Shown: positions 575 through 22,963 of the stretch, one piece after another
How the letters are laid out: each line of letters begins with the position of its first letter
How positions within the stretch are numbered: position 1 is the stretch's first letter
Source of the DNA: Escherichia phage ZCEC10
Length of the DNA stretch: 44,776 nucleotides
Direction: 5' to 3' (one strand)
Sequence record: NC_073075
Program-made: the position numbers and the translations under genes
Notes under the pieces: generated by a model
Database searches by the model: none
Seen by the model: only the letters and a program-made list of their open reading frames with translations
What the model was told of the DNA's origin: nothing

Positions 575-2839
575 ATGAGCTTAATTAAATTCGCTGTAAC
601 ACGACCCGCTAAAAAAGGCGAAAAAGCCAGGGCGGAAAACTTCCAGATGACTACCGAAGAGTTTTTCGAATTTATCAATGATGCGAAAGAAATATCCTCG
701 GTGCATATCAATAAGACGGAAGATAAAGCCGAGTATGCGCGCCGCAAGCGTAAGGCCGATGGCATCGTGGCGTATACCAGTGACGGATTGCGTCGTAAGA
801 CCAGTGCGGTGGACCGCTCGATCCTGTTCTTTGATATTGACCGCACCGACACCCGCACCCTACGCCGCTGCCGTAAGGCGTTCATCGACGCGGGACTGGA
901 GCACGTATTTCACACCACAACCGGCGACCGCCACCCGCTGAAAGGCGGCACGCGTTGCGCCCGTTTCCTGGTGCTCACGGACAAGCCTGTACCGGCTGAA
1001 GACCTGGGCCGCGTCCAGTATGCACTATTACACCAACTGGGTCTGTCAGATGTGGACTTCGACGACTGTACAAAAGACACAAACCGCCTTATGTACCTGC
1101 CACATCAGCAGTCTGTCGTTAAGTGCCACTACGGCAAACGCGCCAGCGTCCGTCGTCTGCTCCGTCGGGCGGATAAGCTGGGGGTGGAAAAAGAGGAAGT
1201 ACGCCGCGAACTAACCCAGGGCGATGACGGCGTGGCGGACGGCATTCTGGACTGGTGCTTCCAGGCAGGATTCGAGGAGTTATCTTCCGGTCGCGGTTAT
1301 GAAGTGCCGTGCCCGAACGAACATCTGCACAGCGGCGAAGGGTCGACGGCTATCATGGTCAAGGATGGCGAGACCCGTTTCAAGTGTATGCACACCGGCA
1401 ACGAGTGTTGCTCGGAACTGAACAGACACCAGCACCTGGCGCTGCGTCTTATCGGGATCCCGGACCACCTGAACGTCGAGCCACACAATATGTCACGCAA
1501 GCAAATCGCCGCCATCCTTCCGGGACTGGACGACGAGGAAGTGGAATCCTGCTATGAACATATCGTTGATGCAGTTGGCGACGGCGAAGAATACGGCGTG
1601 TGCACCGATGCCGACCTGGACAACGAGCCGGTTGCGCTGTTCAGTAAGCACGACCCGATCATCGAGGGGTTGATTAACTTTAAATCGACCTGGTACATGG
1701 CTGGCGAATCGAACATCGGTAAATCGTTCTACGTGCTGGGGCAGATGGGTGCGGTTGCCGCGGGTATTCCGTTTGGCGGTGCGAAGGTCGTCCAGTCTCA
1801 TTGCTTCTATTTCGACGCGGAAGGTGGCGAAGCCTCCAACCAGCGTAAGGAAGCATTGCAAATTAAATATGAGCACGACCTGGACAAGCTGCACATTATC
1901 GATCTGCAATCACGCGGCTGGGATATCACCAGCAAGTCCGGCTTGCGCGAAGTTATCAGCTTCATCAACCGCACCGCTAACGGCGAACCGGTTGGCCTGG
2001 TGGCGTTCGACTCACTCAACCAGACGGTTGCGTTGCGGTCCGCCGATGCCAAACCGTTCGACGAGAACAACGCCAGCGATATGGGCGAAGTGGTCAAGGC
2101 ACTGAAGGCCATCGCGGAAAACACAGGCGGCAGTGCGGGCGTCATCCACCACCCGGCGAAGGGTGCAAACGGAAGCAGATCCCCCCGCGGGTCCGGCGCG
2201 CTGCATGGCGCTGTCGATTCTGCGTTCTTCCTGGAACAGCCGGACGACAACCAGCCGGGACAACTTAACCTGTATCACGAAAAGGCACGTAACGGCATCA
2301 AGCAAGCGCCGCGCGGCTTCGTCCTGCTCAAGTGCAAGGTTAAGGTGGATCTCCGCAAGTCCGAGGCGTTCGAAGCCCACCAGTCCACCAGCACCGGGCC
2401 GGACTTCGGTGATGTGGTCGCCGGTTGGGACGTCAAGCCGATTGCCTCCACGCCTCGCGACGAGACTCTGTACCTCGTACCGGTCGCCCTGGCACCGTTC
2501 GCCATCGAACAGGCGAAGGCCGCGGGCAAGGCAGCAGTTAAGGAAGAGAACGCCGCGGGACCGCGCAACGAAAAAGAGAAAGTGCTCTATGCGGCACTGG
2601 AAAAACTGATGGAAGATAACCCGGACCATACCGGATTCAGTAAATCGGCAATTGTCCGCCAGGCTGGACTGGCGAAAGGTGGTACATCGACGAAGGCAAT
2701 TGACGATATGATCGAGCGCGGCGTACTCGGTTTTTATACAGACCCACACACCGGGGCCATCTATGGGTCGTCGAATATCGTCATAAAAACGAATATACCA
2801 ATCACGCTTTCTGCGACCGATGATGATTTGAAAGATTAA
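575..2839 (+). CDS. Bifunctional primase-polymerase / P-loop replicative helicase
   Basis: 754 aa; N-terminal FFDIDRTD prim-pol-like motif, Cys/His zinc-binding cluster (CPNEHLHSG...CMHTGNEC), Walker A GESNIGKS and Walker B-like VAFDSL. Confidence 0.8.
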   Translation: MSLIKFAVTRPAKKGEKARAENFQMTTEEFFEFINDAKEISSVHINKTEDKAEYARRKRKADGIVAYTSDGLRRKTSAVDRSILFFDIDRTDTRTLRRCRKAFIDAGLEHVFHTTTGDRHPLKGGTRCARFLVLTDKPVPAEDLGRVQYALLHQLGLSDVDFDDCTKDTNRLMYLPHQQSVVKCHYGKRASVRRLLRRADKLGVEKEEVRRELTQGDDGVADGILDWCFQAGFEELSSGRGYEVPCPNEHLHSGEGSTAIMVKDGETRFKCMHTGNECCSELNRHQHLALRLIGIPDHLNVEPHNMSRKQIAAILPGLDDEEVESCYEHIVDAVGDGEEYGVCTDADLDNEPVALFSKHDPIIEGLINFKSTWYMAGESNIGKSFYVLGQMGAVAAGIPFGGAKVVQSHCFYFDAEGGEASNQRKEALQIKYEHDLDKLHIIDLQSRGWDITSKSGLREVISFINRTANGEPVGLVAFDSLNQTVALRSADAKPFDENNASDMGEVVKALKAIAENTGGSAGVIHHPAKGANGSRSPRGSGALHGAVDSAFFLEQPDDNQPGQLNLYHEKARNGIKQAPRGFVLLKCKVKVDLRKSEAFEAHQSTSTGPDFGDVVAGWDVKPIASTPRDETLYLVPVALAPFAIEQAKAAGKAAVKEENAAGPRNEKEKVLYAALEKLMEDNPDHTGFSKSAIVRQAGLAKGGTSTKAIDDMIERGVLGFYTDPHTGAIYGSSNIVIKTNIPITLSATDDDLKD

Positions 2840-2933
2840 ATTTTGCGCGCATTGGTTGCCATTTTGGGTGTTTTTATCCGGTCGTATTGGTTGCCGTGTA
2901 GTGTAAATATAGTGAATAGTTATGCAATAAAAC

Positions 2934-3110
2934 TGCATAAAGTAAGCGGGACAGAAAGCGGGACAAACAAGGGGCGGGACAAAGCGGGACAGCACCCCCG
3001 TCCCGCCCCGGATGGCGCGGCCTGGCGAGGAGCGGGACAGCGGGACAGCACCCCAGTCTTTCAGACTAGACGGGGGGTCAATGGCCCCCCTCGTCTGAGA
3101 CTGCATAAAA
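2934..3110. repeat. Iteron-rich GC repeat R1 (six GCGGGACA(A/G) units plus long imperfect hairpin), paralogous to 20084..20253
   Basis: About 90 percent identical by eye to the second copy; both begin TGCATAAAGTAAGCGGGACAG and end in the hairpin cagactagacgggggg...cccccctcgtctgagactg. Confidence 0.8.
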
Positions 3111-10121: not shown

Positions 10122-11642
10122 ATGACCGTTAACGTTGACAACCAGCACCCACTATATGCGCGCATCGCGCCAGAGTGGAAGATGATTCGTGACTGTGTAG
10201 CAGGCGAGCGCGCCGTGAAGGCGTGTGGTCCTTTGTACCTGCCTCATCCCGCCAGTGGCGATAACACTGACCCGAAAGCACGGGCGCGGTATAAGGCGTA
10301 CAAGCAACGCGCTGTATTCCTGAACGCCACCGCCCGCACACTTAACGCGCTGTTAGGCGTTGCCTTTGCTAAACCGGTAAGTCTGGACCTTTCCGGGGCG
10401 ATGGCTGACCTGATTGACGACGTAGACGGCAGTGGTATGCCGCTGCCGCAACTCCTGCGCGGTGCTATGTCGGAAGTGCTGCAATCAGGCCGTGCGGGCT
10501 TTATGGTTGACTACGACCGCCAGGCGCATTTTGATGAACTGGGTAACGTAGTGCCGCAGACAGCCGCCGAGATGGCGTCACACCGCCCGCTTATCCGCTT
10601 ATATACGGCAGAACAGATCATCAACTGGCGGCAGACCCACGGCGTCGATACGCTGATTGTTCTGAAGGAAACGGACGAAATCAGCACCGAAGACCCGGAC
10701 GACTTCGCAAACCACGAAGTAACAATCTGGACCGAGCTTCGCATGATTAACGGTGCGGCACACGCCCGCCGCTGGTTTTATAATGCGGACACGTCCGAGG
10801 TGCAAATGGACTTGCCGCGGGGGTTTACCCGTACCGATCTTGTGCCGCTGGTGGATGCCGCCGGTAAGGCGCTGACACAACTCCCGTTTTGCTGGTGTGG
10901 TGCGGTGGACAACAACGCAACGCCGGACGCCGCGCCGCTGGCTGATATTGCGTCCATCAACATTAAGCACTACAACGCCGAAGCGGACGTCGCCGAGATT
11001 GCGCACATAGTGGGCCAACCAACCCTGGTTGCGACGGGCTTGACTCAATCATGGGCGGACAAAAACCTGAAAGGCGGCATCGCGCTCGGTGCGACTAAGG
11101 GCGTTATCCTGGGCCAGAACATGGACGCTAAACTGATCCAGGCGGAGGAGCGCAACTTGTCGGTTGCACTGTGTGAGCGTCGCGAATTGCAAATGGCTAA
11201 ACTTGGTGCGGCCCTGGTTGAGAAGGGGACTGCACCTAAGACGGCAACTGAAGCGGCCTACGATGCGCAGACTGATAACAGTATCTTGTCCCTGATTGCC
11301 GGTAACGTTGAGAAGGCTTTCAACCGCGCGTTGCAAATCGTCCAGCTATTCACGGGAGACACCGCCGACCAGCGTGTGACGCTGAATAAGTTCTACACCG
11401 AAATCACGGTTGATGCGCAGCTTATGACCGCGATGATGTCGGGGGTGCAGACTGGCACGGTCCGCCTGGCCGATTTCATCAAGTGGATGATGGCGCAGGG
11501 CGTCATCGACGACTCGCAAACCGTCGAGCAGGTGGAAGACGAATTGCGAAATCAGAATCCATTGCCTCAAATGTCCCCTGATGCGGTAGAATCTACCGAA
11601 GAAGACCCGGACAAGGTAGCGGACAATGGCGAAGACAATTAA
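10122..11642 (+). CDS. Portal protein
   Basis: 506 aa immediately after terminase, acidic C-terminus. Confidence 0.8.
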   Translation: MTVNVDNQHPLYARIAPEWKMIRDCVAGERAVKACGPLYLPHPASGDNTDPKARARYKAYKQRAVFLNATARTLNALLGVAFAKPVSLDLSGAMADLIDDVDGSGMPLPQLLRGAMSEVLQSGRAGFMVDYDRQAHFDELGNVVPQTAAEMASHRPLIRLYTAEQIINWRQTHGVDTLIVLKETDEISTEDPDDFANHEVTIWTELRMINGAAHARRWFYNADTSEVQMDLPRGFTRTDLVPLVDAAGKALTQLPFCWCGAVDNNATPDAAPLADIASINIKHYNAEADVAEIAHIVGQPTLVATGLTQSWADKNLKGGIALGATKGVILGQNMDAKLIQAEERNLSVALCERRELQMAKLGAALVEKGTAPKTATEAAYDAQTDNSILSLIAGNVEKAFNRALQIVQLFTGDTADQRVTLNKFYTEITVDAQLMTAMMSGVQTGTVRLADFIKWMMAQGVIDDSQTVEQVEDELRNQNPLPQMSPDAVESTEEDPDKVADNGEDN

Positions 11643-18461: not shown

Positions 18462-19187
18462 ATGGGTTATCAACTTCCTAACGGGTCCAGCGTCCAGATT
18501 GGGTCCGTACTGGGTAGCGGCATCGCTGTTACGGCGGCTACCAACGCCGCAGCGTCGATCTCCGACCTTACGCAAGGTTGCGTAATTACCTGTGCGGCTT
18601 CGCATGGTCTGGTTGTTGGCGACGTTGTTATGTTCACTAAAACCCCGTGGGTCCGAGCGCTTAACCGCGCATTCATCGTGGGTAAAGTGGACACCAACAA
18701 CGTTACGCTGGCGCGCTTCGACACCGAAGACGTCACAAAATACCCGACCGGCGCTTTCAGCGTAGGCACTCCGGGCGAAGTGGTGAAGGTGTCGGGCTTT
18801 ATCGACTTCCCTTTCATTACTAACGTTGCCGTGTCTGGTGGCGACCAGCAGACGACTACCTTCCAGCCGTTGCAGGTGAACACCGCAATCAGTCTGAACA
18901 CCACGAAAAACCCGTTGGTACAGACTTACACTTTCACCCACGACGAAGAAGACCCGATCCGCCCAATCCTGGAAGACCTGGACGACACACAGAAAACCAC
19001 TGTGATTAAGTTCACGAACCCAGCGGCAGCAAGCGGCAAAGGTGAAATCCGTATTTACCCTGCTAAGGTATCTTTCCAGAAGATTCCGTCCGCTGAAGTA
19101 AACAACGTGGAAACAGTACAATCCACTCTGACCATGCAGTCTGATATGGTTATCTACCGTAAGGATCTGGTCGAGGCATTGTCTTGA
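18462..19187 (+). CDS. Major tail (tube) protein
   Basis: 241 aa; AGGAG RBS; followed by strong terminator and the chaperone frameshift pair. Confidence 0.7.
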   Translation: MGYQLPNGSSVQIGSVLGSGIAVTAATNAAASISDLTQGCVITCAASHGLVVGDVVMFTKTPWVRALNRAFIVGKVDTNNVTLARFDTEDVTKYPTGAFSVGTPGEVVKVSGFIDFPFITNVAVSGGDQQTTTFQPLQVNTAISLNTTKNPLVQTYTFTHDEEDPIRPILEDLDDTQKTTVIKFTNPAAASGKGEIRIYPAKVSFQKIPSAEVNNVETVQSTLTMQSDMVIYRKDLVEALS

Positions 19188-19217
19188 TTTGGTCGCTTAA
19201 ATAGCGAGTGATAATAT

Positions 19218-19244
19218 GGGGCCAGCACGGCCCCTTTTTTTTTT
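19218..19244 (+). terminator. Rho-independent terminator after major tail gene
   Basis: Stem ggggcc/ggcccc followed by T10. Confidence 0.75.
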
Positions 19245-19260
19245 ATTGGAGAATATTACA

Positions 19261-19623
19261 ATGGCTAAAGCACCACTCTTCACACTTGACCCTAAGCCAA
19301 CCTTTAAGCTGCCGATTGAGATTCCGCGCCCTGGTGAGAACGAACCCGGCAAGATGACGTTTACCGTCCGTCACCGCCCGATCGACGAATTTTCGCAAAC
19401 CATGCAGGACACCGAACGGAAGTTGTCGGAATATGACGACAATGACCCGGACGGATTTAACGTTATGGTCGAGGCCATCATGCACGTCGCTGAAGGCTGG
19501 AATCTGCCGGACGAATTTAACGCAGAGAACGTCCGCCGCCTGGTGGTCAACTACCCACGCGCGTTCGGTGTGTTCCACACGTCGTACTATCTCGAGCTGA
19601 TGGGGTTGCGTGAAAAAAACTAA
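19261..19623 (+). CDS. Tail assembly chaperone (G-like)
   Basis: 120 aa between major tail and tape measure genes; ends at slippery AAAAAAC. Confidence 0.7.
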   Translation: MAKAPLFTLDPKPTFKLPIEIPRPGENEPGKMTFTVRHRPIDEFSQTMQDTERKLSEYDDNDPDGFNVMVEAIMHVAEGWNLPDEFNAENVRRLVVNYPRAFGVFHTSYYLELMGLREKN

Positions 19624-19937
19624 TTGAGGCGGCGCGACGCTTTTATGGCCCGCCGCCACCCTCCGAAGATTTAGCCGCAAGTTTATGGGGAGCGGCCCCC
19701 GAAGATGTTTGTCCGCCTGTTGCGCTATGGCCCGACAACGCGAAGGTAGTCGCAGTCTTCACAGATTGCTCCACGCAATGGCGCACCGGATTTGGTGGCG
19801 CATACGGCATCGACTACGGCGTGCTGGCGTGGTTATTTAAGATGCACGGTATCGAAAACGAGCAGCGAGCGTTTAAAGATATCAAGCTAATGGAACGAAT
19901 CGCGCTTGATGAGATGGCGCAGCAGAACCCCGCATAA
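19261..19937 (+). CDS. Tail assembly chaperone GT-like fusion made by programmed -1 frameshift at 19614..19620
   Basis: Slippery heptamer A_AAA_AAC immediately before the G stop; the -1 frame is open for 105 more codons to TAA at 19935..19937 with no ATG start of its own. Confidence 0.6.
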
Positions 19938-19943
19938 TGAAGC

Positions 19944-19973
19944 GGGACAAAGCGGGACGTCCCGCTTTGTCCC
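19944..19973. repeat. Perfect 30-bp palindrome GGGACAAAGCGGGAC|GTCCCGCTTTGTCCC
   Basis: Arms are exact reverse complements with no loop; built from the same GCGGGACA unit as the iteron repeats. Confidence 0.8.
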
Positions 19974-20083
19974 TACCTGTAAAACCGCATATCTAATCAC
20001 TATTATTGCATAAACTCAAAGCGGGACAGGCGGGGCGTCCCGTTTTGTCCCACCCCGAAATGTGCATACCTATTCGAATTTCG

Positions 20084-20253
20084 TGCATAAAGTAAGCGGG
20101 ACAGAAAGCGGGACAGCCAAGGGGCGGGACAAAGCGGGACAGCACCCCGTCCCCGCCAGTGCTGCCGCGGGTTTTAGCCGATCGGGACAGCGGGACAGCA
20201 CCCCAGTCTTTCAGACTAGACGGGGGGTCAACGGCCCCCCTCGTCTGAGACTG
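20084..20253. repeat. Iteron-rich GC repeat R2, paralogous to 2934..3110
   Basis: Same unit order and terminal hairpin as R1. Confidence 0.8.
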
Positions 20254-20320
20254 AATAAGGATTGTTTTAAAATCGCTGATACAATGTCAATCGGCAACTG
20301 CATAAAAAGGGGACTGCATA

Positions 20321-22963
20321 ATGGCAGATCAAGCGGCAGGCATCACGCTGAAGGCTGATGTTGCACAAATCAGAACGGCAAATACTGTGCTGGACTCCTT
20401 CGCACAGAAATCCGAGAACACAGAAAACAAGGTTAAGAAATTAAACGACACCCTCGGCAAATCCAAAAAGGTTACTGGCGACGCCGCGGGCGGAATGGAG
20501 AAGCTGGCGACTGAATCGCAGCGCGCCGCCGATGGCATGACGAAACAAGAGCGACTTGCCAACAGGTTAGGCATGTCGACCAAAAACCTGGGCTTTGCCT
20601 CGCGTAACGCCGCATTCCAGTTACAGGATATCGCAGTTACGCTTGAGATGGGGATGCCGGTACACCGCGTTATGCTTCAGCAGCTACCACAGCTAACCGG
20701 CGCATTTGGCGGACTGGGTAACACGCTGCGTTATGTTGCAGGCTTCCTCGGCCCAGTAGGGATCGGACTTGCTGCCGTAACGGCGACGTTAGGCGTGGGC
20801 GTGGCAATTACGTCACGGGCAGAGAACCAGGTAGCCGCGCTTAATAAGACGCTGGCGCTGTCCGGTAATATCTCCGGCCTCACAGCTAACCAGATCCTGG
20901 TGCTGTCCGAGAACGCTGAGCGCATGGGCGGGTCATTTCGCAAGACGCGTGACACAATCCAGGCGCTGGCGGCGGCGGGTGTGAAAGCGGGTGGTGACTT
21001 CGGCGCATTGGCTAAGGTAGTTAATGACTTTGCGAAGGTGTCCAGCCAGCCGATCGAGGATGTGGTAGCGGCGGTGGCGAAGCTGTCAACCGACCCCGTT
21101 GGCGGACTGCGTGCGCTGGCGGATAAGTATCACGTCGTAAACGAAGCGCAGATCCAGCAGGTACAGTCGCTCGTTGATGCGGGTCGTGAGACAGACGCAG
21201 TTGCGTTGGCTAACAAAACAGCCGCTGCGTCGTTCACCAGCATGACCAATGAGATCAAGGCGAACATGGGTACGCTTGAGCGGTCGATGAACGTCGTCAC
21301 ATCGGCAGCCAAATCGATGTGGGACGCTATCCTGGATGTGGGTCGCGCGCAGTCCTCCAATGAATCCGAGATGAAAGCGCGCGAATCACTGCAGCGGCTG
21401 ACCACGGCTTACTATGCCGAGATGAAAGCGGTAAACGCTGCCGGTGGGGTAATGACTGAAGCGCAGAAAGCACGTATTAACATGCTTTACAGCGAACTGG
21501 TCGCCCAGGAAAAAGTGGTGGCGTCGCTCACCCTGCGTAACCGTGCTGAGCGAGACAACGCCCGCGCCGCAGACGAATCCGCAAAGGCGAACGAGGAGGC
21601 CAACCGCACTGCCCGTGACCGCGCCGCGTTCGAGAAGGAATACGCCACCAACGCTAAGAAGCGCGCCGACGAGATCGCCCGCCTCAATTTGCTGAATAAG
21701 CGCGGCGTTATTGATGAGAAAGAACTAGCCGAGGCGGTGAAGCAGGTTAACAAGCGCTACAAAGACCCGGCACCGAAGAAGGCTGCGGCTGTTCGCGTGG
21801 ATGCTGGTATGAAAATGCTGGAAGTCGCACGGAGCGAACTGGCCCAGCTTCGAGAATCCGGCAAGCAGATCGAAGCCAACGCATCGACGCAGACCCGCAC
21901 GCAACGCGCTCAAGCGGCCTTAAACAAGCTGATCGCGGATAATGAGCAGTTAATCGCCGCAAGCAAAGAAAGGGCGCTAACGGCAGCCGAAAAGCAGCAG
22001 ATGGTCGAATTCGGACGCGTGAAGGAAGTGCGCGAGCAGATCGTCGAAGAAGCCAAATTGCTGGACGCGAAAGAGAAGCAGGTCAAGGCGCACGCGCAGA
22101 TCGATGCCTTCGTTAAGAACCAGAACGCCGAACTAAAAGCCACCGCCGCGGGTTATGCGCTTTCCACTCGCGAAGCGGCAAACCTGCGTGAAGAATTGCA
22201 GCTAATTGACCGCTTGAAGCGGGTTGGCGCTAACGATACCGATATTGACAAGGCGGTGTCTAAGCTGCGCGAAGTGCAGGAGGCACAGACCGGCGCTAAC
22301 GCCTCGCTATGGGATGGCTTCAGCCGCGGGCTTAAGGATAGCGTGGATGATATGGGTAACGGATATACGCAGATGGCGTCGCTCACAAAATTCACGTTCA
22401 GCGCTATGCAAGACACGATGAACGAGTTTTTCGAGACGGGCAAGCTGAACGCAAAGGATATGGTTAAGTCCATCCTTAGCGAATTAATAAAGCTGGCTAC
22501 CTCGCAGGCATTCAAGTCCATCGTTAGCGCTTTCGGCGGTGACGGCGGCAAAAACGGATTGTTCGGCGCTATCTTCTCTGGCCTCACTAAGAATGCGGAC
22601 GGCGGAGCGTACGCAGGAGGCAATCTCGCGGCCTATTCGGGGAAAGTGGTAAGCCAGCCTACCTTTTTCAGTTATGGCGTCCAGGCGTTCGCTAAGGGCG
22701 CCGGGTTGATGGGTGAGGCCGGACCTGAGGCCATCATGCCGCTGAAGCGCGGGCCAGACGGTAAACTTGGCGTTGCCGCGTCGGGCGCAGGCGGTGGTAT
22801 GGTCGTGACGACTAACGTTTACACGGGGGCCGGTAAAACAGATACCAGTGTCAGTGGGCCAGACCCACGTACCGCGCAGGCGTTCGGGAAGCAAATCACC
22901 GAGGCGGTCAAGGCCGAGATCGTGAAGGCGACGAAACCGGGTGGTGTACTTTACAAACGATGA
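20321..22963 (+). CDS. Tail tape measure protein
   Basis: 880 aa, Ala/Glu/Lys-rich coiled coil, Gly-rich C-terminus, located after the chaperone pair. Confidence 0.85.
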   Translation: MADQAAGITLKADVAQIRTANTVLDSFAQKSENTENKVKKLNDTLGKSKKVTGDAAGGMEKLATESQRAADGMTKQERLANRLGMSTKNLGFASRNAAFQLQDIAVTLEMGMPVHRVMLQQLPQLTGAFGGLGNTLRYVAGFLGPVGIGLAAVTATLGVGVAITSRAENQVAALNKTLALSGNISGLTANQILVLSENAERMGGSFRKTRDTIQALAAAGVKAGGDFGALAKVVNDFAKVSSQPIEDVVAAVAKLSTDPVGGLRALADKYHVVNEAQIQQVQSLVDAGRETDAVALANKTAAASFTSMTNEIKANMGTLERSMNVVTSAAKSMWDAILDVGRAQSSNESEMKARESLQRLTTAYYAEMKAVNAAGGVMTEAQKARINMLYSELVAQEKVVASLTLRNRAERDNARAADESAKANEEANRTARDRAAFEKEYATNAKKRADEIARLNLLNKRGVIDEKELAEAVKQVNKRYKDPAPKKAAAVRVDAGMKMLEVARSELAQLRESGKQIEANASTQTRTQRAQAALNKLIADNEQLIAASKERALTAAEKQQMVEFGRVKEVREQIVEEAKLLDAKEKQVKAHAQIDAFVKNQNAELKATAAGYALSTREAANLREELQLIDRLKRVGANDTDIDKAVSKLREVQEAQTGANASLWDGFSRGLKDSVDDMGNGYTQMASLTKFTFSAMQDTMNEFFETGKLNAKDMVKSILSELIKLATSQAFKSIVSAFGGDGGKNGLFGAIFSGLTKNADGGAYAGGNLAAYSGKVVSQPTFFSYGVQAFAKGAGLMGEAGPEAIMPLKRGPDGKLGVAASGAGGGMVVTTNVYTGAGKTDTSVSGPDPRTAQAFGKQITEAVKAEIVKATKPGGVLYKR

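What the first reader, a model, noticed from the sequence alone, without database searches (positions are those of the whole stretch)
19608..19937. Programmed -1 ribosomal frameshift in the tail assembly chaperone pair
The chaperone ORF ends at ...GAA AAA AAC TAA with slippery heptamer A_AAA_AAC at 19614..19620. The -1 frame is open for a further 105 codons to TAA at 19935..19937 and has no start codon of its own. This matches the conserved G/GT frameshift of long-tailed phages and adds confidence to the tail module annotation.
Basis: partly seen in the sequence, partly recalled or inferred. Interest (0 to 1): 0.4.

Follow-up and report, generated by a model that had tools for sequence, protein, structure and literature searches.

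The report
Tail chaperone G/GT programmed frameshift
This is the standard -1 ribosomal frameshift that lets a long-tailed phage make a short and a long tail-assembly chaperone from one gene; it is real and strongly conserved, missing from this phage's GenBank annotation, and ordinary in kind.

Summary
The window is the whole genome of Escherichia phage ZCEC11/ZCEC12 (Dhillonvirus). Every detail of the observation checks out. A 120-aa chaperone ORF (19261..19623, Pfam Phage_TAC_4) ends GAA AAA AAC TAA. The -1 frame opens at 19614, the first base of the heptamer A_AAA_AAC (19614..19620), and runs 105 codons to TAA 19935..19937. It encodes a DUF1799 domain (E 5e-21) with no usable start codon.

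The gene pair lies between the major tail and tape-measure genes. In 106 of 114 related loci, down to about 30% identity, T is in the -1 frame. An in-phase heptamer abuts the G stop in nearly all lineages. Three lineages carry other canonical heptamers there (G_GGA_AAC twice, A_AAG_GGT once), which points to tRNA slippage rather than RNA-polymerase slippage.

A GC hairpin lies 7 nt downstream (19628..19657). It sits in the one stretch of the gene pair where synonymous variation among 22 Dhillonvirus genomes is suppressed (4/16 versus 150/210 sites, p=3e-4).

The homologous pair in T1-like phage Stevie is already annotated as a frameshift product. Lambda G/GT has the same architecture but belongs to unrelated sequence families.

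This is a new, unannotated member of a well-known kind, of low interest. No fusion protein has been observed.

The parts
18462..19187 (+). Major tail (tube) protein gene, the upstream neighbour of the chaperone pair
   Evidence: Pfam Phage_tail_3 at E 6e-32 and phrog_584 'major tail protein' at E 1e-73
19218..19244 (+). Intrinsic-terminator-like hairpin GGGGCC-AGCAC-GGCCCC followed by T10, between the major tail gene and G. It probably attenuates transcription into G/GT/tape measure.
   Evidence: Terminator scan; sequence. A terminator is annotated at the same place in phage CS16.
19261..19623 (+). G: tail assembly (tape-measure) chaperone ORF, 120 aa, 13.96 kDa, zero frame. GGAG at 19248..19251 lies 9 nt before the ATG.
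   Evidence: Pfam Phage_TAC_4 at E 1.4e-23 over its full length; phrog_569 at E 1e-40. The start at 19261 matches the homologues' MAK... N-termini. Variable sites among relatives fall 71/8/5 on codon positions 3/1/2. Mass.
19611..19613 (+). TGA in the -1 frame, immediately before the heptamer. It restricts the G/T overlap to exactly the 7 nt of the heptamer.
   Evidence: the -1 frame opens at 19614
19614..19620 (+). Slippery heptamer A_AAA_AAC, with the P-site Lys AAA and A-site Asn AAC codons in the zero frame
   Evidence: It is invariant in all 22 Dhillonvirus sequences and present in 34 of 39 clusters at 95% identity. G_GGA_AAC (2 clusters) and A_AAG_GGT (1 cluster) replace it at the same position.
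19621..19623 (+). Zero-frame stop TAA directly abutting the heptamer. Its first two bases are bases 2 and 3 of the invariant -1-frame Leu codon CTA.
   Evidence: A stop abuts the heptamer in nearly all lineages while its identity varies: TAA 18, TGA 17, TAG 4 clusters. Dhillonvirus 'rolling' has TGA, which is CTG Leu in the -1 frame.
19628..19657 (+). Predicted stimulatory hairpin 7 nt after the heptamer: outer stem GGCGGCG (19628..19634) / CGCCGCC (19651..19657), plus inner pairs
   Evidence: MFE -17.1 kcal/mol, z -2.05 for the 52-nt segment. The stem is invariant in 22 Dhillonvirus genomes. Only 4 of 16 third-codon positions vary in 19609..19657, all between the two stem arms, against 150 of 210 elsewhere in G+T (Fisher p 3e-4). 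The longest invariant third-position run in the gene pair is 19611..19634.
19620..19937 (+). T: the -1 frame extension, 105 codons plus TAA, translated only as the C-terminal part of GT. GT = join(19261..19620, 19620..19937), 225 aa, 25.55 kDa.
   Evidence: Pfam DUF1799 at E 4.7e-21; phrog_680 at E 1.6e-30. phrog_17368 (213 positions) matches both G and T, so it is a fused family. Variable sites fall 66/19/9 on codon positions 3/1/2 of the -1 frame. The frame is intact in all 22 Dhillonvirus sequences and open in 106 of 114 related loci. Mass.
20321..22963 (+). Tape measure protein gene, the downstream neighbour. By analogy with lambda it is the presumed binding partner of the G moiety.
   Evidence: Pfam TMP_2 at E 2e-43 and Tape_meas_lam_C at E 6e-14; phrog_24 at E 5e-182

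Best explanation
A programmed -1 ribosomal frameshift makes two tail assembly chaperones from one start codon.

Most ribosomes translate G (19261..19623) and terminate at TAA 19621, giving the 14-kDa chaperone G. A minority slip. With tRNA-Lys on AAA (19615..19617) and tRNA-Asn on AAC (19618..19620), both tRNAs move back one base on A_AAA_AAC. The next codon read is then CUA (19620..19622), and translation continues for 105 codons to 19937. The product is the 25.6-kDa fusion GT (...LREKN-LIEAARR...), whose C-terminal part is a DUF1799 'T' domain.

The slip is probably helped by a GC-rich hairpin that begins 7 nt downstream, and perhaps by the pause at the abutting stop codon.

By analogy with lambda G/GT, the G moiety would coat the tape measure protein and the T moiety would recruit the major tail protein. 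A low GT:G ratio, set by a heptamer that is weak in E. coli, would be needed for correct tail assembly, and neither protein would end up in the virion.

Shown here: the ORF anatomy, the domain identities, the gene order, the conservation and substitution of the heptamer, and the suppression of synonymous variation over the heptamer and hairpin. Inferred: that slippage happens on the ribosome, its efficiency, the role of the hairpin and the stop, and the binding partners.
For: (1) Anatomy. The in-phase heptamer occupies the only 7 nt where both frames are open, and T has no start upstream of its domain.

(2) Identity. G is Phage_TAC_4 (E 1.4e-23) and T is DUF1799 (E 4.7e-21). One PHROG family spans both. 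The pair is flanked by the major tail and tape measure genes.

(3) Comparative evidence. In 106 of 114 loci T lies in the -1 frame with more than 80 codons beyond the G stop. Of 39 clusters at 95% identity, 34 carry A_AAA_AAC, 2 carry G_GGA_AAC (a Ralstonia phage and a Comamonadaceae MAG) and 1 carries A_AAG_GGT (phage Jahat). The codon before the heptamer changes amino acid (GAA, GTA, GCA, ACA, CAA) but always ends in A. The stop varies among TAA, TGA and TAG.

(4) Selection in the -1 frame. Variable sites fall 66/19/9 on codon positions 3/1/2.

(5) RNA signal. Synonymous variation is suppressed exactly over the heptamer, spacer and stem, and the hairpin is predicted at -17.1 kcal/mol.

(6) Precedent. 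Stevie's homologous pair has the same heptamer followed by TAA and is 38.7% identical (E 1.6e-41). It is annotated as a joined CDS and described as a conserved translational frameshift (PMC4319613). Lambda needs a 30:1 G:GT ratio (PMC5009743). [quoted passage not shown]
Against: No direct evidence of the fusion protein exists for this phage or any Dhillonvirus. The ZCEC paper does not mention frameshifting, chaperones or a tape measure.

Thermodynamic support for the hairpin is modest. The z-score is -2.05 on 52 nt, -0.98 with my own mononucleotide shuffles on 55 nt, and -0.29 on 113 nt. Many distant relatives have no comparable hairpin, so it is at best a lineage-specific stimulator.

No conserved Shine-Dalgarno-like element lies upstream. 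The GGGG at 19603..19606 includes a variable wobble base.

A run of seven A could also permit some RNA-polymerase slippage. Two of the 39 clusters lack a recognisable canonical heptamer abutting the stop (L111 and L114).
Confidence: 0.88

Rival explanations
1. Transcriptional slippage. RNA polymerase stutters on the A7 tract (19613..19619) and adds one A to a fraction of mRNAs. Standard translation of those mRNAs then yields GT.
For: The site is a run of seven A. AAAAAAA is under-represented in E. coli genes in all three frames, possibly because of transcriptional slippage (PMC4066793). An extra A gives the same frame as a -1 shift. Three IMG/VR relatives carry A8 in their DNA, which shows the tract is length-labile.
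Against: Homologues have G_GGA_AAC or A_AAG_GGT at the same position, with no long homopolymer. The Drexlerviridae lineages (GTA AAA AAC) and others (GCA, ACA) have only six A. What is conserved is the 7-nt motif in phase with the frame, including the final C, and not the run length. Efficient slippage by bacterial RNA polymerase is reported for runs of 9 A or T (PMC5009743). The suppressed synonymous variation over a hairpin 7 nt downstream fits a ribosomal stimulator.
Confidence: 0.06
2. T is translated on its own, by re-initiation after termination at TAA 19621 or from a non-canonical start such as ATT 19623. G and T would then be separate proteins, as most GenBank records of related phages annotate them.
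For: Many records annotate a separate downstream ORF, for example ACG-M12, NBD2, SU57 and CS01. Stop and restart coupling is common in phage operons.
Against: In this window the -1 frame has no ATG, GTG or TTG for its first 67 codons, and no Shine-Dalgarno sequence precedes ATT 19623. Residues encoded immediately after the slip site are invariant across the family (L121 and A124 in alignment A1), so the conserved protein begins at the heptamer. The in-phase slippery heptamer and its canonical substitutes would be unexplained. A PHROG family of fused G+T proteins exists.
Confidence: 0.03
3. It is an artefact or a decayed gene. G-T would be one gene broken by a sequencing error or a real frameshift mutation in the A run, or T would be a non-functional remnant.
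For: Homopolymer length differs in a few database relatives: A8 in L030 to L032 and A5 in L033.
Against: The same A7C-plus-stop arrangement is present in about 159 independently sequenced Dhillonvirus records, most at 91 to 98% identity, and in 106 of 114 loci overall. The T frame shows purifying selection and is intact in all 22 Dhillonvirus sequences examined.
Confidence: 0.02

Closest known systems
Tape measure chaperone pair of T1-like phages (Drexlerviridae), e.g. Citrobacter phage Stevie CPT_Stevie15/16, KM236241 join 10144..10775
   Same: Same Pfam families (Phage_TAC_4 plus DUF1799). Same position between the major tail and tape measure genes. Same heptamer A_AAA_AAC directly followed by TAA, and a -1 extension of about 105 codons. 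The fusion is 38.7% identical to the window's over its full length (E 1.6e-41). It is annotated as a joined CDS and described as a conserved translational frameshift (PMC4319613). Some members also have a hairpin 6 to 7 nt downstream, GGGCGGTTT/AAACCGCCC.
   Different: G here is 16 residues longer because of an insertion around residues 55 to 70. The G/T overlap here is cut to exactly 7 nt by a -1-frame TGA, against 70 to 100 nt in T1-like phages. The hairpin sequence differs. T and the tape measure gene are separated by 383 nt of repeat-rich non-coding DNA, against about 40 nt in T1-like phages.
Bacteriophage lambda gpG / gpGT (G_GGA_AAG frameshift; Levin, Hendrix and Casjens 1993 and Xu, Hendrix and Duda 2004, 2013, 2014, as cited in PMC5009743)
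   Same: Same gene order V-G-T-H. The second ORF is in the -1 frame without its own start. A canonical X_XXY_YYZ heptamer lies near the end of G, and the expected efficiency is low. The presumed division of labour is the same: G binds the tape measure and T binds the major tail protein (PMC5009743).
   Different: There is no detectable sequence relationship. Lambda GT is PF06894 plus PF06223, and hhalign against the family alignment gives probability 0.5%. The heptamers differ (G_GGA_AAG against A_AAA_AAC). In lambda the G stop lies about 5 codons after the heptamer and T overlaps H, whereas here the stop abuts the heptamer. Lambda's fusion is experimentally proven; this one is not.
IS-element -1 frameshift signals of the IS1/IS3 families that use A_AAA_AAC or G_GGA_AAC
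   Same: They use the same two low-efficiency heptamers, often with a downstream hairpin as stimulator. The purpose is to set a low, fixed ratio of fusion to upstream product (PMC4066793).
   Different: The proteins are unrelated (transposase against chaperone). IS3-type signals often include an upstream Shine-Dalgarno-like stimulator or a pseudoknot; none is conserved here.

Membership tests
G/GT-type tail assembly chaperone frameshift of long-tailed phages (Xu, Hendrix and Duda 2004 class) | Two ORFs located between the major tail protein gene and the tape measure gene | tested here: met
   Major tail gene at 18462..19187 (Phage_tail_3) and tape measure gene at 20321..22963 (TMP_2) flank G/T
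G/GT-type tail assembly chaperone frameshift of long-tailed phages (Xu, Hendrix and Duda 2004 class) | The second ORF overlaps the end of the first in the -1 frame and has no translation start of its own | tested here: met
   The -1 frame is open from 19614 to 19937. The first ATG, GTG or TTG is GTG 19821, inside the domain.
G/GT-type tail assembly chaperone frameshift of long-tailed phages (Xu, Hendrix and Duda 2004 class) | A canonical slippery sequence (X_XXY_YYZ) in phase within the overlap | tested here: met
   A_AAA_AAC at 19614..19620 fills the whole overlap
G/GT-type tail assembly chaperone frameshift of long-tailed phages (Xu, Hendrix and Duda 2004 class) | The arrangement and slip site are conserved in relatives despite sequence divergence | tested here: met
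   106 of 114 loci keep the arrangement. 37 of 39 clusters at 95% identity have a canonical heptamer abutting the stop, and three different heptamers are used.
G/GT-type tail assembly chaperone frameshift of long-tailed phages (Xu, Hendrix and Duda 2004 class) | Both the short product and the fusion are made, at a low fixed ratio, and both are required for tail assembly | not testable with these tools
   Needs a Western blot or mass spectrometry, plus phage genetics. The predicted products are 13.96 and 25.55 kDa, with junction peptide NLIEAAR.
Lambda gpG/gpT sequence families (Pfam PF06894 Phage_TAC_2 and PF06223 Phage_tail_T) | A significant sequence or profile match to the lambda families | tested here: not met
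   The window proteins hit PF08748 and PF08809 only. Lambda GT hits PF06894 and PF06223. hhalign gives probability 0.5%, E 0.11.
Phage_TAC_4 / DUF1799 chaperone pair (T1-like and HK578-like phages and enterobacterial prophages) | The N-terminal part matches PF08748 and the -1 extension matches PF08809, both above the gathering score | tested here: met
   83.9 bits against a cut-off of 21.1, and 75.2 bits against a cut-off of 26
Phage_TAC_4 / DUF1799 chaperone pair (T1-like and HK578-like phages and enterobacterial prophages) | Full-length similarity to a member annotated as a frameshift fusion | tested here: met
   38.7% identity over 225 aligned positions to the Stevie joined CDS, E 1.6e-41
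Bacterial -1 programmed ribosomal frameshift signal | A downstream RNA structure starting about 5 to 9 nt after the heptamer | tested here: inconclusive
   A hairpin with a 7-nt spacer is predicted at -17.1 kcal/mol, but z-scores run from -2.05 to -0.29 depending on the segment. Strong suppression of synonymous variation over it in Dhillonvirus (p 3e-4) supports a function. The stem never varies, so no covariation is available. A comparable hairpin is absent in many distant relatives.
Bacterial -1 programmed ribosomal frameshift signal | An upstream Shine-Dalgarno-like stimulator (an optional feature, as in dnaX and IS911) | tested here: not met
   Only GGGG at 19603..19606 is present, and its last base is a freely varying wobble position, G, A or C
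Programmed transcriptional slippage | A long homopolymer (efficient with runs of 9 A or T in bacteria, PMC5009743) whose length, and not its reading phase, is conserved | tested here: not met
   The run is A7 here and A6 in the GTA, GCA and ACA lineages. It is replaced by GGGAAAC or AAAGGGT in others. The phase is strictly conserved.

The most novel reading that the evidence does not exclude
The signal may be a compact three-part cassette, heptamer plus directly abutting zero-frame stop plus hairpin, in which the stop codon is itself a selected stimulator. Slow termination with an empty A site would give the Lys and Asn tRNAs time to slip. This would tie the GT:G ratio to release-factor activity and so to host physiology.

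The evidence does not exclude this. In 37 of 39 clusters a stop directly follows the heptamer while its identity changes among TAA, TGA and TAG. The rare Leu codon CTA, or CTG, is retained in the -1 frame, which keeps a stop in the zero frame. The adjacency could equally be historical, frozen by the double coding constraint. One relative (L114) has its stop 5 codons later.
Probability: 0.25. Interest if true: 0.35.

Novelty: new member of a known kind. Interest (0 to 1): 0.15.

Why it matters
Mainly for annotation. The GenBank record of ZCEC11 lacks GT and fills 19624..19937 with two small 'hypothetical' ORFs, one of them on the opposite strand. It also starts G inside a terminator. None of the roughly 13 Dhillonvirus records whose annotation I inspected annotates a fusion, and the product names listed for the wider set do not suggest one. 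Correct annotation adds an essential tail-assembly protein to a group of phages that is being developed for therapy.

The comparative data also give a clean natural example of a low-efficiency heptamer kept by selection. It is substituted only by other canonical heptamers, and it comes with a hairpin marked by suppressed synonymous variation. This is useful as a benchmark for frameshift-finding software, but it is not new biology.

Tried and rejected
- **Rfam.** An E-value scan of 19100..20400 found nothing near any gathering score. The only matches were generic hairpin hits to miRNA models.
- **PDB sequence search** with GT found no relative with a solved structure.
- **NCBIfam** gave no hit.
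- **Profile comparison with lambda GT** showed no relationship. The only alignment was a non-significant 13-residue match, YGIDYGVLAWLFK against SGLTYTVLSLFFS.
- **Folding a longer 113-nt stretch** gave no signal (z -0.29), so there is no thermodynamic support for a larger structure or pseudoknot.
- **A universal downstream hairpin** across the family was rejected. It is present in Dhillonvirus, some Drexlerviridae and one Comamonadaceae locus, and absent or different elsewhere.
- **An upstream Shine-Dalgarno-like stimulator** was rejected because the candidate is not conserved.
- **Alternative ORFs over the T region.** I tested the minus-strand 55-aa and 145-aa ORFs and the +1-frame 51-aa ORF. 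None has a Pfam or PHROG match. The antisense frames are broken by stops in distant relatives. The minus-strand 55-aa ORF is intact in all Dhillonvirus sequences only because it shares wobble positions with the T frame.
- **The distribution of -1 extensions past ORF stops** turned out to be confounded by overlapping neighbouring genes, so I used stop density instead.
- **Not run.** I did not run structure prediction or the large protein-database searches. The Pfam and PHROG assignments and about 120 related loci already decide the question, and a fold model would not change the verdict.

Full report
**What the window is.** The 44,776-bp window is 100% identical over the queried 2 kb to Escherichia phage ZCEC11 (OK310512) and ZCEC12 (OK310513). 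Both are 44,776-bp genomes of the genus Dhillonvirus (HK578-like siphoviruses), so the window is a complete phage genome. The paper describing these phages does not mention frameshifting, chaperones or a tape measure.

**Checking the observation.**
- The sequence at 19609..19623 reads CGT GAA AAA AAC TAA.
- The chaperone ORF is best placed at 19261..19623 (120 aa). GGAG lies 9 nt before this ATG.
- The longer ORF from ATG 19216, used in GenBank, starts inside a terminator-like hairpin followed by T10 at 19218..19244. Homologues begin at the equivalent of 19261.
- AAAAAAC occupies 19614..19620 in the phase A_AAA_AAC.
- The -1 frame is closed by TGA at 19611..19613 and opens at 19614. It stays open through 105 codons after the shift, to TAA 19935..19937. 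The only place where both frames are open is therefore the heptamer itself.
- The first ATG, GTG or TTG in the -1 frame is GTG 19821, 38 codons from the end.
- Every statement in the finding is correct.

**More than chance.**
- Stop density in the -1 frame of this genome's long ORFs is 0.057 per codon, so 105 open codons have P about 0.002.
- AAAAAAC occurs twice in the genome on both strands, against 7.9 +/- 2.8 expected. This is the only + strand copy.
- The encoded proteins are recognisable. G matches Pfam Phage_TAC_4 (E 1.4e-23, full length) and phrog_569. The -1 extension matches Pfam DUF1799 (E 4.7e-21) and phrog_680 (E 1.6e-30).
- phrog_17368, a 213-position family, matches G with its N-terminal half and T with its C-terminal end, so it is a family of fused proteins.
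- The upstream gene is the major tail protein (Phage_tail_3, phrog_584). The downstream gene is the tape measure protein (TMP_2, Tape_meas_lam_C, phrog_24).
- The other ORFs over the region have no family match: the minus-strand 55 aa ORF annotated in GenBank, a minus-strand 145 aa ORF, and a +1-frame 51 aa ORF. Antisense frames are full of stops in distant relatives.

**Comparative evidence.** I collected 114 loci holding relatives of the predicted fusion. They came from GenBank phages, IMG/VR contigs and bacterial genomes carrying prophages.
- In 106 loci the T-like sequence lies in the -1 frame relative to G and runs more than 80 codons beyond the G stop.
- Clustered at 95% protein identity (39 clusters), the 7 nt before the G stop are:
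  - AAAAAAC in 34 clusters.
  - GGGAAAC in 2 clusters (a Ralstonia phage and a Comamonadaceae MAG).
  - AAAGGGT in 1 cluster (Escherichia phage Jahat_MG145).
- All three are canonical X_XXY_YYZ heptamers in the correct phase.
- One further cluster (a Comamonas MAG, L114) has A_AAA_AAC five codons before its stop. One (a Nitrotoga MAG, L111) has no canonical heptamer that I could recognise.
- The codon supplying the first A changes amino acid (GAA, GTA, GCA, ACA, CAA) but always ends in A.
- The stop varies among TAA (18 clusters), TGA (17) and TAG (4).
- This is selection on the nucleotide motif and its phase, not on the protein.

**Selection within Dhillonvirus.**
- Among 17 genomes, variable sites in the T region fall 66/19/9 on codon positions 3/1/2 of the -1 frame. 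In G they fall 71/8/5 on positions 3/1/2.
- The T frame is intact in all 22 sequences examined.
- One lineage ('rolling') has TGA instead of TAA. This is stop to stop in the zero frame and Leu to Leu in the -1 frame.

**Ribosome or RNA polymerase?** A run of seven A could support some transcriptional slippage, and adding one A would give the same product. Four points argue against it as the conserved mechanism.
- The homologous position carries GGGAAAC or AAAGGGT in three lineages.
- The Drexlerviridae-type sequence GTA AAA AAC has only six A.
- The phase and the terminal C are conserved, and not the run length.
- Efficient bacterial RNA-polymerase slippage is reported for runs of 9 (PMC5009743).

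A small contribution from transcriptional slippage cannot be excluded without cDNA data.

**Stimulators.**
- Seven nucleotides after the heptamer lies a hairpin at 19628..19657. Its outer stem is GGCGGCG/CGCCGCC, and it folds at -17.1 kcal/mol.
- Thermodynamics alone is weak evidence. The z-score is -2.05 on 52 nt, -0.98 with my own shuffles on 55 nt, and -0.29 on 113 nt.
- The better evidence is evolutionary. In 22 distinct Dhillonvirus sequences, 150 of 210 third-codon positions vary outside 19609..19657, but only 4 of 16 vary inside it (Fisher p 3e-4).
- All 4 lie between the two arms of the outer stem. The longest run of invariant third positions in the whole gene pair is 19611..19634. Variation resumes at 19658, the first base after the stem.
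- Some Drexlerviridae have a different hairpin at the same distance (GGGCGGTTT/AAACCGCCC, z -3.4 to -4.6). Many other relatives have none. The hairpin is therefore a lineage-specific enhancer and not a defining part.
- No conserved Shine-Dalgarno-like element lies upstream.
- The stop codon abuts the heptamer in nearly all lineages. Whether that adjacency is functional or merely frozen by double coding is open. From memory, Horsfield et al. 1995 reported that a stop codon 3' of a heptamer modulates -1 shifting in E. coli. I could not verify this in the held library, so it is a lead only.

**Mechanism and function.**
- Most ribosomes terminate at 19621 and release G (13.96 kDa). A minority slip -1 on A_AAA_AAC, read CUA next, and make GT (225 aa, 25.55 kDa; junction ...GLREKN|LIEAARR...).
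- Lambda requires about 30 G per GT (PMC5009743). A weak heptamer with a modest stimulator fits that need.
- The roles of the two moieties are inferred from lambda and are not tested here: G on the tape measure, T recruiting the major tail protein, and neither in the virion.

**Comparison with what is known.**
- The closest known case is the tape measure chaperone pair of T1-like phages. Citrobacter phage Stevie annotates a joined CDS at 10144..10775. Its sequence has the same A_AAA_AAC followed by TAA, and its fusion is 38.7% identical to the one here (E 1.6e-41). The genome paper calls it a conserved translational frameshift (PMC4319613). Phage U136B was annotated in the same way (PMC8104045).
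- Lambda G/GT shares the architecture but not the sequence. It belongs to PF06894 and PF06223, against PF08748 and PF08809 here, and hhalign gives probability 0.5%.
- The feature is therefore a member of the functional class and of the Phage_TAC_4/DUF1799 family. It is not a member of lambda's families.

**Novelty and verdict.** What is new is local.
- ZCEC11's record lacks GT and annotates two small ORFs over the T region instead.
- None of the roughly 13 Dhillonvirus records whose annotation I inspected annotates a fusion. The product names listed for the wider set do not suggest one.
- I classify it as a new member of a known kind, with interest 0.15.
- The remaining uncertainty is experimental: no fusion product has been demonstrated.

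Noticed in passing
window 20084-20258 and 2934-3108 (+ strand): A 175-nt non-coding module is present twice in the genome at 89% identity. One copy lies between T and the tape measure gene. The other follows the 754-aa ORF at 575..2839. Each carries several AAGCGGGACA motifs and ends in a strong hairpin (about 20204..20252, CAGUCU...GACGGGGGG-UCAAC-GGCCCCCCUCGUC...AGACUG) with no U-tail. No Rfam match. Its function is unknown. It could be a regulatory or promoter module, a processing site or a small RNA.
   Followed up: partly
window 19938-20320: There is an unusually long (383 nt) gap between the chaperone pair and the tape measure gene; in lambda and T1-like phages the two genes nearly abut. 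The motif AAGCGGGACA (up to 1 mismatch) occurs 16 times in the genome against 3.2 expected. Eight copies lie at 19940..20197 and five at 2944..3047. This recalls the unexplained intergenic repeats reported in T1 and Stevie (PMC4319613).
   Followed up: partly
window 19944-19973: A perfect 30-nt palindrome, GGGACAAAGCGGGAC/GTCCCGCTTTGTCCC, lies 7 nt after the T stop. Relatives annotate the same spot as a terminator (WF5505) or a repeat_region ('rolling'), but no T-run follows it on the + strand.
   Followed up: partly
window 19216-19261: GenBank starts the chaperone CDS at ATG 19216 (135 aa). That start lies inside the terminator-like hairpin plus T10 at 19218..19244. Homologues and the GGAG at 19248..19251 support ATG 19261 (120 aa).
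   Followed up: yes
L001 (OK310512) locus 2744-3038, equal to window 19643-19937: The ZCEC11 record annotates two 'hypothetical proteins' over the T region: a minus-strand 55-aa ORF and a 37-aa fragment of the T frame's C-terminus. Two more small ORFs are annotated in the non-coding gap. The tape measure protein is named 'gene transfer agent tail tape measure'. The small ORFs over T have no family support.
   Followed up: yes
L030, L031, L032 (IMG/VR), slip site near locus position 890-927; L033 near 905: Three relatives have A8 instead of A7, so G and T are fused in one frame (REKKL...). One relative has A5. These are either homopolymer sequencing errors or natural length variation of the slippery tract. 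The A8 form arose at least twice, in different lineages.
   Followed up: partly
L004 (NC_073065, phage Zar3M) locus 401-1075: This RefSeq record carries many N bases, mostly at wobble positions, through G and T. It looks like a consensus of a mixed population. Its heptamer reads A_AAA_AAT.
   Followed up: no
L087 (IMG/VR) and L096 (Leclercia adecarboxylata chromosome): These are decayed prophage copies. In L087, G ends ...REKN* but unrelated DNA follows in place of T. In L096, G is broken by an upstream frameshift while the REKN*/KKLIAV junction survives.
   Followed up: no
GT residues 182-194 (window about 19803-19841) against lambda T: The most conserved DUF1799 motif, YG(I/L/F)DY(N/G)VL..LF, aligns with SGLTYTVLSLFF of lambda gpT. 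The hhalign E-value is 0.11, which is not significant. It is a possible trace of very remote common ancestry of T domains.
   Followed up: no
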